Virus record (IMG/VR): IMGVR_UViG_2529293240_000011 | Span: 1-4,732 of that record | Source of the DNA: a virus | Lineage: Duplodnaviria; Heunggongvirae; Uroviricota; Caudoviricetes | Strand: one strand, 5' to 3' | Length of the DNA stretch: 4,732 nt | In this document: positions 1-4,732 of the stretch, piece after piece | Position numbering within the stretch: position 1 is the first letter of the stretch | Layout: each line of letters opens with the position of its first letter | The notes under the pieces: model-generated | What the model saw: the letters and a program-made list of their open reading frames with translations, nothing else | The model's database searches: none | What the model was told of the DNA's origin: nothing | Position numbers and translations under genes: made by a program

Positions 1-742
1 TGCCGTAGGGGCCAGCAACGGAATATTCAACTGGCAGCGCATTCCTTACCCAGGCCAGGAAATCACTCTTAGTGTCAAAACGGATAACATCTTCAGGCAG
101 AAAAGCACACCCAAAGCCGAATGCGCCGGGTATCGCCAGACGGCCTTTTGTCCGGTCGTAAATGTCGCTCTGTGCTTCCATCGTGGCCGCACTTTTCAGC
201 CCCAGATTATCCCGGGACTTCTGTTGTGCCTTTTCGCCTGCTGCTGCGATTTCAGACAGATGGTTAGCCGTTTTCAGGGTGCCGGTCAGCGCAGCATCAA
301 TGTCATTTTTGGCCTGTTCTGCTGCGCGGGCATAACCTGCGGCTGCCGCCACATCCTGCGCCGTCTGCTGTGCGTTTCCGGCTGCGGCCCCGGCGCTCTG
401 CTGCGCCTGCGCCACCATTTCCTCAAAGCGTTTGACGACATCCGGTTTCAGGTCGCCCTCATCAGGAGCAATCAGAAAGTCATTCAGCGTGCCGGGCTTT
501 GAGTCCTCATATACAGCAATGTCGCCAACGTTGTACTCGTTGCGCCAGTCCTGTTTCAGATACACACCATATTTTCCAGTCCGCGCATGGAAACAGTATT
601 CACCATCGTTTCCTGTCATCACATCAGCAACAGTGTTCATCACCACTTCCGGGGTGTTTACCCGGGATTTCAGAATAATATGGTATCCGGACATGGGGAT
701 ACCTGCGCCATCAGTCAGCGCACCTGATATCACTACAGACAT
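1..742 (-). CDS. side tail fibre protein, lambda Stf-like N-terminal domain (partial; 3' end lies beyond window start)
   Basis: ATG at 742..740 is the first start after an in-frame TAA at 763..761; I translated the frame by hand and it stays open for 247 codons to position 1. Not in the ORF track because it has no stop in the window. N-terminus MSVVISGALTDGAGIPMSGYHIILKSRVNTPEVV...GDIAVYEDSKPGTLNDFL matches from memory the conserved N-terminal domain of lambda Stf-type side tail fibres (MAVKISGVLKDG...TITVYEDSQPGTLNDFL), followed by an Ala/Gln-rich stretch typical of fibre shafts. Only a weak GAG Shine-Dalgarno in the 23-bp spacer after the upstream gene. Confidence 0.8.
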   Translation of the reverse strand, partial: MSVVISGALTDGAGIPMSGYHIILKSRVNTPEVVMNTVADVMTGNDGEYCFHARTGKYGVYLKQDWRNEYNVGDIAVYEDSKPGTLNDFLIAPDEGDLKPDVVKRFEEMVAQAQQSAGAAAGNAQQTAQDVAAAAGYARAAEQAKNDIDAALTGTLKTANHLSEIAAAGEKAQQKSRDNLGLKSAATMEAQSDIYDRTKGRLAIPGAFGFGCAFLPEDVIRFDTKSDFLAWVRNALPVEYSVAGPYG

Positions 743-765
743 TGTTTTTCTCGCGATAAATTAAA

Positions 766-1311
766 TCAGGAAGAACCTTCCGGAGAGGCGGGCCATTCAA
801 TGGCGTTGTATGAGGATTTATCAGTGATGGTGCTGAAATCCATCGCCTGCAGCGATTTCGCGTAAATACGACAGGCTTTCAGCTTTTCTTTATCTTCGTC
901 GCTGATTAACCCCAGCAGCAGGTCTTCTTCCCATTCCCCTGTCCGGGCACTGACCTGAGCCAGAAGGGCATCACGCTCATCTTCCGCTTTGAGTCTGTAG
1001 TCAAAGACAAATTCATCATTGCGGTAAAACCAGTAACCCGGCGCGGTAATCCGTCGGTTAGCGGTAATATCAGGAACTTCAATAACACTGGCATTGCGTG
1101 GCTCGATGCCTGTCACATCCTTACCGACCCACACCACGCGACCATCTCCGGTGTAAGCTATTTTTATTGTGTCGCTGGCGAAATTCTTCAGCTCTTCATA
1201 CCAGTTTTTTCCGTCTTCTGAAAAAAGCCAGGAGACCGAATATCGTTTTGTCATCTGATATTGTTCTGCTGTTTTCGGATTACCCGCAGTAATATTTTTT
1301 AAATGCAACAT
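766..1311 (-). CDS. tail fibre assembly protein (Tfa chaperone; P2 gpG-like N-terminus, lambda Tfa-like C-terminus)
   Basis: 181-aa ORF whose ATG (1311..1309) lies 2 nt after the fibre stop (TAA, 1316..1314). N-terminus MLHLKNITAGNPKTAEQYQMTKRYSVSWLFSEDGKNWYEE...VIEVPDITANRR resembles P2 gpG as I recall it; C-terminal ...AIEWPASPEGSS resembles the lambda Tfa C-terminus (...DIEWPAVPVME). Position directly downstream of a fibre gene fits a Tfa. Confidence 0.88.
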   Translation of the reverse strand: MLHLKNITAGNPKTAEQYQMTKRYSVSWLFSEDGKNWYEELKNFASDTIKIAYTGDGRVVWVGKDVTGIEPRNASVIEVPDITANRRITAPGYWFYRNDEFVFDYRLKAEDERDALLAQVSARTGEWEEDLLLGLISDEDKEKLKACRIYAKSLQAMDFSTITDKSSYNAIEWPASPEGSS

Positions 1312-1313
1312 TG

Positions 1314-2699
1314 TTAAATACTCGCTACGTTATACCAGGTGCCATTAATCAGTTTTTGCAGTGGTCGGTAATACACACCGTCAACGTTATCCGCTGAGTT
1401 ACGGCCGGTATCCGATATCGCCATCCCTGACAGCCCGTGTCCCGAAGGTGCGCAAAATCTCCACGAAACGGTGTTACTGCCGGGGCTGTAATACATTTCA
1501 TGGCCATACCGTACATCCTGTACCCCCTCTGTTCGATATTTATAGCGGGCATCGAAGTTTCCGTAATTTAACGGAATTACCTGTCCGTTAACAGTGAACA
1601 CTATGCTGTTATCCGGGTTTCTCTGGCTGAAAAAATGCCAGCCTGAATCATCACCAAGCTCTGCAACAACAGGCCTGGATGGATTACCCCACAAATAAAA
1701 CGCTGCATTTTTCGTGGAGTTGTTGGCGCTGGATAACGTGAATTTTCTGGCAGTTCCGGCCTGAATATTCTTAAAAGCAATAGCCACTCCATTCTGAAAG
1801 CGGAATACACGCTGACTATTAGCATAAACATCCAGAATACCGTCTCCATTCTGTTTAAATCCGGTGTCATTATCACCAAGAACAATTGAATTCCCCCCCA
1901 GGGCGTTCTGAACGCCGATACCCAGCGCACCATTGACCTGCGAACCACCGCCAACAGACACTTTATGCGACATGGATATTTCACCCGTCCGCAAATTAAT
2001 GGTGAACGGGCGCAGGGGACCAATATCGCCATTTTCCCCCTGACCTTCACTGGTGGGAATAAGGTGCAGGCACTCTTCCGAACGACGAAAAATCAGGCCA
2101 AAAGCTTCGTTGAAAATCCTCAGCGCATTAACACCACGGATTTTCAGCTCTCCGGTTATTTTATCGCCTTCCCGATGAACATAGCGTTGATCTGACTGCT
2201 CTTTACTGTAAACCTGAAGATTATCCCGTGCCGTCCCTTTATTCTGAAGGTCTGACAGATTGTTCTTCTGCCGCAGGAATATCCTTTTCGGATCCTCAAG
2301 AAGATTTACCCAGCCCGCACTGTCGGAGCCTTCAGGATCGGTCAGGTTATCGTCTGTGGTATTCAGCCAGACCGCTGTTGTTGCGACTCCGGCGAGAATG
2401 GCTCCTTTTGCATATCCACCAATGGCCCCCGCAAAACCGGCATTATACGTGTACAAACCGCCAGCCTGGGCGAACCGTATTGCTGCGGTAATATCGTACA
2501 TCAGACCGTTAAAATCCTTGCCGTGTGGCGGTATACCTCCCGCTGAGACCGCTGTCATGGTCACCGGAGGAAAACCTGAATCATACGCAGCATTACCGCT
2601 CTCTCTGGTCTGCTGTGTCGCCTTGTCCGGGATACGGTTTTTATCTCCGGTACTCGCAAAGGGGACCGCCAGCTGGCGGGGTTTATCACTGGCCTTCAT
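1314..2699 (-). CDS. tail fibre protein with P2 gpH / Mu S-type C-terminal receptor-binding region
   Basis: 461-aa ORF. C-terminal half contains [51 protein letters not shown]...[20 protein letters not shown]...[11 protein letters not shown], which matches the conserved C-terminal region shared by P2 gpH-family fibres (recall, not a search). The N-terminal ~260 aa are not recognisable to me. Start ATG at 2699..2697 is preceded by a strong Shine-Dalgarno (minus strand AAAGGAGTCCCGTAATG). Confidence 0.88.
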
Positions 2700-3290
2700 T
2701 ACGGGACTCCTTTAAAACTACTGAAACATAAACACCCGGCGGGGATGGCAGTGCACCCGACGACTGGATAATCGCCAGTTCTGCCAACGAGAGCGCGGAC
2801 TCAAAGACGTAACTCATCCTCAGCCCACCATTATTCAGAACATAAGCCCGCCGTTTTTTTCCGAACATAAATCTCAGCATCCGGTTAATATCCGGAACGG
2901 AACAGTCAGTAATGTTCGACATGGCTTTCATCAGTATCAGCCGCCGGTATACAGCATCAGACAGGTCAACAGTCCGGGTATCCGATTTTCCGTTGTAAAA
3001 CGGTGCCTGATTAAACGGACAGGGATCATCCATTACCGGGGTGTCCATCCTGGACTCGCTGAAGCCAGGTAATTAAAATCGTCCTTTACCGTCAGCCGGC
3101 GACTGACACCCACAATCTTTCCCCAGACATCAAGACCATACTTTTCTGCGGTATCGATGTTCCAGATAAGACCATAAAAATCACTGATAAAACTGTCGGG
3201 GGAAAGCGCTGCGTTAAAGCTGTTAATGAGGGCATTGAGTCGGGGGCTGGCAGCATACTGCGCAAGCACAGTGGCAGCCACATTCTGCAC
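2686..3290 (-). pseudogene. YmfQ/DUF2313-like phage tail (baseplate) protein gene, split by an apparent 1-nt frameshift
   Basis: Two adjacent minus-strand ORFs in different frames: 3033..3290 (GTG start, 85 aa) and 2686..3048 (120 aa; that frame is open upstream to 3072). The first carries ...FYGLIWNIDTAEKYGLDVWGKIVGVSRRL..., the N-terminal signature I associate with the e14 YmfQ / Mu gp48 (DUF2313) family; the second carries the C-terminal pattern (...YRRLI...NITD...YVFESAL...ELAIIQSSGALPSPPGV). Together they give the expected ~200 aa. The frame change maps to about 3066..3075 (minus strand GATTTTAATTACCTGGC), where one extra T would restore ...DFNLPGFSES.... Could be a real pseudogene or a sequencing indel. 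Confidence 0.6.
2707..2712 (-). promoter_or_regulatory. Shine-Dalgarno (AAGGAG) for the tail fibre gene
   Basis: Minus-strand AAGGAG (plus-strand ctcctt at 2707..2712) sits 7 nt upstream of the ATG at 2699. It lies inside the 3' end of the preceding gene, which overlaps the fibre start by 14 nt. Confidence 0.6.
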
Positions 3291-3291
3291 G

Positions 3292-3534
3292 TTATGCCTC
3301 CTGGAGTTTCACACTGATATCCGACACATCCAGAACCGGAATCTCATCTATCCCGAAAGTGACAGCCGTTGTCCATGACGAACCGTCACGGCTCACAGTA
3401 AGGCCCAGAATATCAATATGTTCCGGATCGGTTTTGTAAATGCCGGCATAGTAGCGCCCGGCAGAGACAACAGAGGCAACCCTTGCCCGCAGACCACCAT
3501 CTGTACCATTAAATGCGTCCAGCACGGATTGCTG
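3292..3534 (-). pseudogene. 3' remnant of a tail/baseplate gene (baseplate J-like by synteny) truncated by the IS insertion
   Basis: The reading frame ending at TAA (3294..3292) stays open upstream across the proposed IS boundary at 3535 and into IS sequence, stopping only at 3603..3601, so the native 5' part of the gene is missing. The stop is 1 nt from the GTG start of the YmfQ-like gene, suggesting translational coupling. In P2/Mu/e14-type modules the gene before the I/YmfQ-like gene is baseplate J; I cannot recognise the 81-aa remnant itself, so identity rests on position. Confidence 0.45.
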
Positions 3535-3560
3535 GTAAGCGCCCCGAGAAGTACGTAGCG
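3535..3560. repeat. putative terminal inverted repeat (IRR) of the IS66-family element
   Basis: GTAAGCGCCCCGAGAAGTACGTAGCG at the inferred IS terminus. Its extent is a guess because the partner IR at the other IS end is outside the window. Confidence 0.4.
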
Positions 3561-3566
3561 TAAGGA

Positions 3567-4732
3567 TTATTTTACAGACGAGAAGTTCCAGGGCAGCAGT
3601 TCATGCACTTGGTTCGACGGCCAGTCATTGAGCTTCTCGATCACTTCGCGCAACCAGTCCTCCGGCTCCACTTCGTTCTGTTTGCAGGTGACCAGCAGAC
3701 TGTAGATGATCGCCGCACTTTCTCCTCCCTTGTCTGAGCCGAAAAAGAGATAATTTTTTCTTCCAACCGCCACCGATCGTAACGCGTTTTCACCGATGTT
3801 GTTGTCTATTTCCACCCAGCCGTCACGACAGAACTCGTTCAGCGCATTCCAGTGATTCAGGATATAGTCGAACGCCTTCGCCATCTCCGCATGTTTCGAC
3901 AGCGTTTTCCTCTGCAACTGTATCCAGTCGTACAACGACTGCATCAACTGGACGCTTCTGGCTTTTCTGACTGCAAGCCGTTCCTCTGCCGGACTGCCAC
4001 GTATCTCCGCTTCTATGTCGTATAACTCTGCTATCCGTCTGAGCGCTTCCTGAGTCATTTCTGTCGGACGGCGCACATCCTCGTCATGGATTTTTCGGCG
4101 GGCGTGGGCCAGGCACCCGGCTTCCTTCACCCGACCCGTTTCGTACAGTACGTTATAACCTGCATAGGCATCAGCCTGCAGTACGCCCTGATACTTTGCC
4201 AGGTGGAGCTGCGGATGTTCTCCTTTGCGATCTGCCGAATACGCGAACCAGACGGCTGCCGGCAGGGATGAACCCGCATTACGATCATCCCTGACGTATA
4301 CCCACAGACGACCCGTTTTCGTCTTTCCGTTCCCCGGGGCCAGTACTTTCACCGGAGTGTCATCTGCGTGCACCTTTCCTGCCTCCAGAACATAGTCATT
4401 CAGCGCTATATACAGAGGACGGAGTTTGTCTGCCATTTCTGATACCCAGCGCACCATGGTATTACGGCTCAGCTCCACGCCCTGTCGCGCGTATATTTCT
4501 GACTGGCGATATAAAGGGATATGTTCCATATATTTGCTGACCAGGATCCGTGCAAGTAACCCTGCACTGGCATAACCGCGTTCGATCGGTTTAGGGGGAA
4601 GTGGTGCCTGAACGATGACATCACACCGGCTACAGGCCAGTTTGGGACGTATGGTTTCGATAACTTTAAAGGCGGTATTAATGATATCCAGTTGCTCTGA
4701 GATTGTTTCCCCATTTCTTTCAGAACACCTCC
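3567..4732 (-). CDS. IS66-family DDE transposase (TnpC-type), partial; N-terminus beyond window end
   Basis: Stop TAA at 3569..3567. I checked by hand that the frame stays open from the ORF-track methionine (4529) up to the window edge (...[80 protein letters not shown]...), so the track's 4529 start is an artefact and about 388 codons are in the window. Motifs LACSRCD (zinc-finger region), [40 protein letters not shown] and ELLPWN are characteristic of IS66 TnpC proteins (recall). Confidence 0.85.

What the first reader, a model, noticed from the sequence alone, without database searches (positions are those of the whole stretch)
3292..4732. IS66-family element inserted into a phage baseplate gene
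The tail-gene reading frame that ends at 3292 runs unbroken across a GTAAGCG IS66-type terminus at 3535 into transposase-proximal sequence, so an IS66-family element has cut off the 5' portion of a structural gene (baseplate J-like by gene order). This would inactivate baseplate assembly and leave the downstream fibre and chaperone genes as a stranded, possibly still-expressed cargo. The IS is co-oriented with the tail operon, so read-through from the IS could drive them.
Basis: partly seen in the sequence, partly recalled or inferred. Interest (0 to 1): 0.5.

Follow-up and report, generated by a model that had tools for sequence, protein, structure and literature searches.

The report
ISSfl3 truncates a dead prophage's baseplate gene
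The right end of the known IS66-family insertion sequence ISSfl3 cuts off all but the last 80 codons of a baseplate J gene in an already defunct Shigella prophage remnant next to the sit iron-transport genes, which is ordinary insertion-sequence-driven genome decay.

Summary
Window 3535..4732 is the right 1198 bp of ISSfl3, 99.8% identical to annotated copies. It starts with the terminal repeat GTAAGCGCCCC at 3535 and carries the 3' part of tnpC on the minus strand. Window 3292..3534 is identical to codons 334-413 of a 413-aa baseplate J/gp47 gene that is intact in closely related genomes.

- The window is an entire 4732-bp draft contig (AFOW01000034.1) that stops inside the repeat, so it cannot be extended.
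- One complete genome (CP100042.1) is collinear with the whole window at 99.94%. There the full 2754-bp IS has IS600 DNA on its far side, not the 5' part of J. The flanks are GGTTTTTC and CAGCAATC, so there is no 8-bp target duplication. This indicates an IS-associated deletion or rearrangement, not a simple insertion.
- The prophage was already dead. Head and tail genes are missing, and the next gene (DUF2612/wedge) carries a 1-bp deletion that IS-free relatives share.
- Read-through expression of the fibre genes is possible but untested.

A second, commoner ISSfl3 insertion lies 42 bp upstream in a paralogous prophage remnant and has a clean duplication (AAAAAAAG).

Low interest; a known kind of event.

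The parts
3535..4732 (-). Right-hand 1198 bp of the 2754-bp IS66-family element ISSfl3. The contig ends inside the IS. The terminal inverted repeat GTAAGCGCCCC is at 3535..3545 on the + strand.
   Evidence: 99.8% identity to annotated ISSfl3 copies. The boundary was mapped by BLAST and direct reading. An 11-bp perfect terminal inverted repeat is seen in the full copy in L017.
3567..4732 (-). 3' part of tnpC, the IS66 DDE transposase (last 387 of 533 codons). The stop codon is at 3567..3569. A 1-nt deletion near 4713 relative to all other copies lies 20 nt from the contig end.
   Evidence: Pfam DDE_Tnp_IS66, zf-IS66 and IS66_C. NCBIfam transpos_IS66. Difference map.
3292..3534 (-). 3' remnant of a baseplate J/gp47 gene: codons 334-413 plus the stop. 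Gene callers report it as a 77-aa GTG-start ORF at 3292..3525.
   Evidence: Identical to the C-terminus of the intact 413-aa J protein of L002, L003 and L005. The intact protein hits PF04865. Homologues in intact phages cover up to residue 406-410. The remnant alone has no Pfam or NCBIfam hit.
2686..3290 (-). DUF2612 / Phage_Wedge1 pseudogene. A 1-bp deletion (a G in a GGG run, near 3067) splits it into 85-aa and 120-aa ORFs.
   Evidence: The two ORFs hit profile positions 1-73 and 79-180 of PF11041. Alignment with the intact 201-aa copies of L001 and L012 locates the deletion, and IS-free L003 shares it.
1314..2699 (-). Tail fibre gene, intact, 461 aa. It overlaps the end of the wedge pseudogene by 14 nt.
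   Evidence: ORF list. The same protein occurs on 9 contigs. No Pfam hit. Its position matches the fibre gene in the E. coli relative.
766..1311 (-). Tail fibre assembly (chaperone) gene, 181 aa.
   Evidence: Pfam Caudo_TAP, E=8e-27.
1..742 (-). 5' part of a second tail fibre gene (prophage tail fibre N-terminal domain). It runs off the contig.
   Evidence: Pfam phage_tail_N, E=1e-70.

Best explanation
The window is a whole short draft contig from a Shigella genome, most likely S. flexneri. It shows the right end of ISSfl3 (IS66 family: tnpA-tnpB-tnpC, GTAAGCG termini, 8-bp duplications on simple insertion) fused to the last 80 codons of the baseplate J gene. That gene belongs to a degraded prophage remnant lying next to the sitABCD iron/manganese transporter genes.

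The IS arrived by transposition of its right end into J at the sequence CAGCAATC. This is inferred from the sharp boundary.

The 5' 333 codons of J and the upstream baseplate genes are most likely not on the other side of the IS. They were probably lost in one of two ways. An ISSfl3 copy already sitting in an IS600 element may have made an intramolecular transposition (an 'adjacent deletion'). Alternatively, a simple insertion in J may have recombined with a second, directly oriented ISSfl3 copy. Both routes leave the IS with unrelated flanks and no target duplication, which is what the one complete collinear genome shows.

The event has no functional consequence for phage production, because the prophage was already non-functional. 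The J remnant is a pseudogene fragment. The fibre and chaperone genes downstream are leftover prophage genes, and whether they are expressed is unknown.
For: Identity of the window:
- It equals contig AFOW01000034.1 (4732 bp), reversed.
- The remnant protein is named as a Shigella protein by its sources.

The boundary:
- IS/tail boundary at 3534|3535.
- ISSfl3 identity 99.8%.

The intact gene and its surroundings:
- Intact J in L002, L003 and L005 is 99.9% identical to the window flank, and the break falls between L003 9165 and 9166.
- sitDCBA lies downstream in L001-L003 and L017.

The complete collinear genome:
- L017 matches the whole window at 99.94%.
- It carries a full 2754-bp ISSfl3 whose left flank is IS600 interior...GGGTTTTTC|GTAAGCG. 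Q antiterminator and holin genes lie further upstream, and there is no J 5' part.

Other ISSfl3 copies do show 8-bp duplications, so the absence here is meaningful: GGGAAGTC in L010 and AAAAAAAG in L011 and L013.

The reciprocal junction was not found:
- The predicted reciprocal junction proteins are absent from the protein collection.
- The predicted reciprocal DNA junction is absent from 5426 complete E. coli genomes.

The prophage was already decayed. The wedge frameshift is shared with IS-free L003. IS3-family elements bound the remnant, and no head or tail-tube genes are present.
Against: The far side of the IS in the window's own genome is unknown, because the contig stops inside the IS. 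A simple insertion there, with the L017 lineage rearranged later, is not excluded.

The negative protein look-up requires an exact sequence. It would miss a product with a single substitution, a different called start, or a contig break.

L017 has homopolymer errors, so its gene calls are imperfect. Its flank sequences were read directly, however.

The look-up of a chimeric IS600 OrfA that would mark the L017-type left junction found nothing. This neither supports nor refutes the same arrangement in the window's genome.
Confidence: 0.75

Rival explanations
1. Simple transposition. ISSfl3 sits inside an otherwise complete J gene. The 5' 335 codons and an 8-bp CAGCAATC duplication lie just beyond the other IS end, which falls on another contig of the same draft assembly.
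For: ISSfl3 makes such insertions. The paralogous J copy in L011 and L013 carries a full ISSfl3 flanked on both sides by J sequence with the duplication AAAAAAAG. The window's own far flank was not observed.
Against: The only complete genome with this exact junction has IS600 on the far side and no duplication. The predicted 336-aa truncated J product is not in the 15-billion-protein collection, which includes gene calls from the window's assembly.
Confidence: 0.2
2. Assembly artefact. The contig is a chimera that joins a multi-copy IS to one of two nearly identical prophage remnants, and no such junction exists in the cell.
For: The window is a short-read-era draft contig ending in a repeat. 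The genome family carries two paralogous tail remnants that are 99.5% identical. The two differences unique to the window (near 4713 and at 30) lie within 30 nt of the contig ends.
Against: The identical junction and the whole 4732-nt arrangement recur in an independent complete chromosome at 99.94%. All diagnostic SNPs along the tail flank are of the sit-locus type, with no switch to the paralogue. The junction differs from that of the paralogue, so it cannot have been copied from it.
Confidence: 0.03
3. The junction is secondary to the commoner ISSfl3 insertion 42 bp upstream in the paralogous remnant. That IS-bearing segment moved to the sit locus by recombination or gene conversion, and 42 bp next to the IS end were then deleted.
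For: The two junctions are only 42 bp apart and in the same orientation in paralogous genes. That is unlikely for two random insertions in a genome of about 4.6 Mb.
Against: The flank is sit-locus type from the first diagnostic SNP, at 3481, 54 bp from the junction. The window's IS differs from the paralogue's IS copy at 3 of 1198 positions, but from the L017 copy only by the indel near 4713 that all copies show, and from an E. coli copy at only one further site. The left flank in L017 is IS600, not the J sequence that flanks the paralogue's IS.
Confidence: 0.05

Closest known systems
ISSfl3, an IS66-family insertion sequence of Shigella flexneri (name as used by NCBI's annotation)
   Same: 99.8% nucleotide identity over the 1198 bp present. 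The TnpC domains match. The GTAAGCG terminus is present. The full collinear copy is 2754 bp with tnpA, tnpB and tnpC.
   Different: Only the right 43% is in the window. This copy lacks the 8-bp target duplication in the one genome where both flanks are visible. The original pCP301 record AF386526.1 labels the gene under a 71-nt, 100% match to this IS end 'ISSfl4 ORF3', so the naming is inconsistent between sources.
IS-driven pseudogenisation and prophage decay in Shigella
   Same: Several different IS elements (IS600, IS1, other IS3-family elements, ISSfl3) interrupt or bound the same prophage remnant in different strains. The breakpoints are lineage-specific. That IS expansion drives Shigella genome decay is established knowledge recalled from memory, not read here.
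   Different: Nothing differs in kind. This particular breakpoint is rare. Of the places and contigs examined, only the window and L017 carry it.
Baseplate J/gp47 family protein (PF04865) of myovirus-type simple baseplates
   Same: The remnant is the exact C-terminal 80 residues of a 413-aa member. Gene order in intact relatives is plug, hub, spike, sheath initiator, J, wedge1, fibre. The closest phage homologues (Pantoea phage PA-1, Klebsiella phages) are 55-57% identical over 97-98% of the length.
   Different: Here 81% of the protein is missing, including the whole stretch that matches the Pfam domain (residues 90-241), so it cannot be a functional baseplate protein.

Membership tests
IS66 family / ISSfl3 | DDE transposase TnpC with IS66-type domains | tested here: met
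   PF03050 E=7e-102, zf-IS66 and IS66_C. NCBIfam NF033517, 431.7 bits against a cutoff of 180.
IS66 family / ISSfl3 | Terminal inverted repeats beginning GTAAGCG | tested here: met
   GTAAGCGCCCC at 3535..3545. The same 11 bases are inverted at the other end of the collinear full copy, L017 7238..9991.
IS66 family / ISSfl3 | Accessory genes tnpA and tnpB upstream of tnpC | tested here: met
   They are not in the window, because the contig ends. In the collinear copy in L017, tnpA is 224 aa (HTH_Tnp_1) and tnpB is 115 aa (TnpB_IS66).
IS66 family / ISSfl3 | 8-bp target-site duplication flanking the element | tested here: not met
   The L017 flanks are GGTTTTTC and CAGCAATC. Other copies meet the feature: GGGAAGTC and AAAAAAAG. 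A missing duplication marks a secondary rearrangement of this copy, not non-membership. The window's own genome could not be tested.
IS66 family / ISSfl3 | Near-identity to the named element | tested here: met
   99.8% over 1198 bp to copies that RefSeq annotates as ISSfl3. It was not compared with the ISfinder reference entry, which is unavailable here.
Baseplate J/gp47 (PF04865) | Sequence membership of the gene from which the remnant derives | tested here: met
   The remnant is identical to residues 334-413 of a 413-aa protein. That protein hits PF04865 at E=5e-12 and is named baseplate J/gp47 by RefSeq. The remnant alone gives no hit.
   In L017 the far flank is IS600, with no J 5' part in the 7.2 kb upstream. 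The predicted truncated product is absent from the protein collection. This was not testable in the window's own assembly.

The most novel reading that the evidence does not exclude
The 3' region of this baseplate J gene may be a preferred ISSfl3 target. Two different ISSfl3 right-end junctions, 42 bp apart and in the same orientation, occur in two paralogous prophage remnants. That would give a rare handle on target-site choice by IS66-family transposases, which is poorly understood. Alternatively, the window's junction may be a direct footprint of an IS66-family intramolecular (adjacent-deletion) transposition.
Probability: 0.15. Interest if true: 0.25.

Novelty: already known. Interest (0 to 1): 0.08.

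Why it matters
It matters little beyond annotation. The 77-aa ORF at 3292..3525 should be labelled as a baseplate J pseudogene fragment. The contig end should be recognised as a repeat-induced assembly break. The locus adds one more lineage-specific IS breakpoint that could serve as a strain marker in Shigella, for the prophage remnant that carries the sit iron/manganese uptake genes. It gives no evidence of a new mechanism or system.

Tried and rejected
- An exact search for the 45-nt junction in the one-genome-per-species collection found nothing. This is probably because the collection holds only one genome per species, so few or no Shigella-type genomes are included (not checked).
- No E. 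coli complete genome holds 80% or more of the window.
- Exact look-ups of the predicted reciprocal products found nothing: the 336-aa product with the duplication and the 377-aa product without it. The chimeric IS600 OrfA (102 aa) that would mark the L017-type left junction was also absent.
- BLAST of the L017 left junction and of the predicted reciprocal junctions found no contiguous match. It was run against complete E. coli genomes (L017 IS600|ISSfl3 left junction; predicted J|ISSfl3 junction) and against plasmids (predicted ISSfl3|IS600 junction; L017 left junction). The rows showing 98-100% coverage are two separate pieces, 245-577 bp apart in the record. No donor IS600::ISSfl3 copy was identified.
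- A literature search for ISSfl3 returned only resistome and genome-survey papers that mention the name. A search on the sit locus and prophage returned general S. flexneri genome papers, which I did not read.
- The promoter/terminator scan of 2600..3800 gave nothing above chance on the minus strand.
- The partial 59-84-aa proteins in the remnant's cluster were inspected to count window-type junctions. None of them carries IS-derived residues. The 1.0-2.5-kb lengths of their contigs fit the interval between the two IS elements of the paralogous locus (my inference). They are uninformative either way.

Full report
**What is in the window**

All coding capacity is on the minus strand. Reading 5' to 3' on that strand:
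- The 3' 387 codons of an IS66-family transposase, 4732 down to 3567. It hits Pfam DDE_Tnp_IS66 at E=7e-102, plus zf-IS66 and IS66_C, and NCBIfam transpos_IS66 at 431.7 bits.
- 32 bp of IS end.
- An 80-codon open frame, 3534 down to 3292, with no family hit of its own.
- Two ORFs of 85 and 120 aa that match the two halves of DUF2612/Phage_Wedge1.
- A 461-aa fibre gene.
- A 181-aa tail-fibre assembly gene (Caudo_TAP).
- The first 247 codons of a second fibre gene (phage_tail_N).

**Where the window comes from**

The window is exactly the reverse complement of a complete 4732-bp draft contig, AFOW01000034.1 of assembly GCA_000217895.2. Both ends are therefore assembly breaks. The right end stops inside a multi-copy IS, so 'extending past 4732' is impossible in this record.

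Source names for the remnant protein and its cluster say Shigella or Shigella flexneri. The intact J protein is catalogued under a S. flexneri UniRef entry. No complete E. coli genome carries the whole window.

**The boundary**

BLAST against related loci places the switch between 3534 and 3535. Window 1..3534 is 99.9% identical to L002 and L003, two large chromosomal records (UGYT01000001.1 and CP024470.1). Window 3535..4732 is 99.8% identical to copies annotated 'IS66-like element ISSfl3 family transposase'.

It is the only occurrence in the window, though 0.3 would be expected by chance. The motif alone is weak, and its coincidence with the homology switch is what counts.

A full reference copy in L010 is 2754 bp. 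It has 11-bp perfect terminal repeats (GTAAGCGCCCC) and an 8-bp duplication, GGGAAGTC.

**The remnant**

In L002, L003 and L005 the same DNA continues upstream as an intact 1242-nt gene. Its 413-aa product hits Pfam Baseplate_J and is named baseplate J/gp47 by RefSeq. It lies in the order plug, hub, spike, sheath initiator, J, wedge1, fibre.

The window's 80 residues are identical to residues 334-413. Homologues in intact phages align to residue 406-410, so the remnant is real coding sequence of J. The break in L003 is between 9165 and 9166...CGACAGGTA|CAGCAATCCG.

The frame stays open for 22 IS-derived codons, to a stop at 3601..3603. This has no significance.

**Is it a simple insertion?**

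Looking up the 77-aa ORF that gene callers report here returned many Shigella chromosomes. They fall into two groups.

- **Group A: L011, L013-L016 and L018-L020.** This is a paralogous remnant next to acpS and an ipaH gene.
  - In the two read in full, L011 and L013, a full ISSfl3 lies 42 bp further upstream in J. J sequence flanks it on both sides, with a perfect 8-bp duplication, AAAAAAAG. This is a textbook simple insertion.
  - L019 was read at its right junction only, and that junction is the same.
  - The other loci of the group show the same BLAST coordinates, with a 42-bp offset between the IS end and the tail homology.
  - L012 is the same acpS-adjacent remnant without ISSfl3.
- **Group B: L017 only (CP100042.1).**
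  - It is collinear with the entire window at 99.94%, with one mismatch and two single-base gaps, and it sits next to sitDCBA.
  - The junction is therefore real and not an assembly chimera.
  - The full ISSfl3 occupies 7238..9991.
  - Its left flank is the interior of an IS600 copy (IS600 position about 1198 by my alignment), reading ...GGGTTTTTC|GTAAGCG. Lambdoid Q and holin genes lie further upstream.
  - The two flanks do not match, and the 5' 333 codons of J and the other baseplate genes are absent.

The predicted reciprocal products are not in a collection of about 15 billion proteins that includes gene calls from the window's own assembly. These are J residues 1-335 plus Ser and a stop, which is what the CAGCAATC duplication followed by GTAAGCG would give, or a 377-aa product without the duplication.

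The far flank is thus most likely lost. The route was either intramolecular transposition of an ISSfl3 resident in IS600, or recombination between two ISSfl3 copies. I could not distinguish these, because no donor IS600::ISSfl3 copy was found. I also could not see the far flank in the window's own genome.

**Independence from the group A insertion**

Every SNP that distinguishes the two paralogous remnants is of the sit-locus type in the window, starting at 3481, 54 bp from the junction. The window's IS differs from the group A IS at three sites. It differs from the L017 copy only by the indel near 4713, which is seen against every other copy. The two junctions are therefore best read as separate events. 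Their closeness (42 bp, same orientation) is unexplained.

**Functional reading**

The prophage was dead before this event.
- IS-free relatives L002 and L003 keep only the baseplate-to-fibre segment, bounded by IS3-family elements, with no head, sheath or tube genes.
- The DUF2612 gene carries a 1-bp deletion (a G near 3067) in the window and in IS-free L003. It is intact in E. coli CFSAN029787 (L001) and in L012.
- 'Inactivating baseplate assembly' is therefore not a meaningful consequence.

The IS and the tail genes are co-oriented. No terminator-like element lies between the tnpC stop (3567) and the IS end. No minus-strand promoter-like site was found in 2600..3800. Read-through from tnpC is possible. 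It would have to cross a frameshifted gene, where untranslated RNA invites polarity; that is inference, not a test.

**Comparison and verdict**

This is ISSfl3, a known IS66-family element, truncating a known gene family (baseplate J/gp47) in a known kind of decayed Shigella prophage remnant. That IS expansion drives Shigella genome decay is my own background knowledge, not something read here. The same structure is already present and annotated in a public complete genome. Its interpretation is right on identity and orientation, but wrong or unproven on 'insertion within an otherwise recoverable gene' and on functional impact. Interest is low.

Noticed in passing
window 3067 (within 2686..3290, minus strand): The DUF2612/Phage_Wedge1 gene is a pseudogene. 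One G of a GGG run is missing, which splits it into 85-aa and 120-aa ORFs. IS-free Shigella relatives (L003) share the deletion. The gene is intact (201 aa) in E. coli CFSAN029787 (L001) and in L012.
   Followed up: yes
L011 and L013 7196..9949 (paralogous locus next to acpS and ipaH): A second ISSfl3 insertion sits in a paralogous baseplate J copy, 42 bp upstream of the window's breakpoint. It has the same orientation and a clean 8-bp duplication, AAAAAAAG. It is much commoner among complete Shigella genomes than the window's junction. Such closeness of two apparently independent events hints at a target preference.
   Followed up: partly
window ~4713 and window 30: A 1-nt deletion in a C/G run in tnpC, relative to every other ISSfl3 copy examined, and a base at position 30 that differs from every related locus compared (L003, L011, L017). 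Both lie within 30 nt of the contig ends, so they are probably assembly-end errors rather than biology.
   Followed up: partly
window 1587..2161 (inside the 461-aa fibre gene): The central part of the fibre gene has no megablast match to the otherwise 96-99% identical E. coli CFSAN029787 prophage, where the gene is 410 aa. This looks like a mosaic replacement of a fibre segment.
   Followed up: no
L011-L020 ~11727..13058: In the paralogous remnant the equivalent fibre gene is itself split by an IS3-family element (409-aa transposase), at the position matching window 1799..1804. The flanking matches overlap by 6 bp, which is consistent with a short target duplication.
   Followed up: no
L001-L003 and L017, downstream of the window's left end: The prophage remnant lies directly next to sitABCD (an iron/manganese ABC transporter) in E. 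coli and Shigella relatives, so the tail genes are the edge of the element that carries this uptake system.
   Followed up: partly
L017, at the position matching window 1893..1899: The complete genome CP100042.1 lacks one base of a C7/G7 run in the fibre gene, so the 461-aa ORF is not called there. This is probably a long-read homopolymer error, and it limits the use of exact protein look-ups for that genome.
   Followed up: no
AF386526.1 167727..167797 (hit H74): The original S. flexneri 301 pCP301 record labels the gene under a 100% match to this IS end 'ISSfl4 ORF3', whereas RefSeq calls the element ISSfl3. The naming is inconsistent between sources.
   Followed up: no
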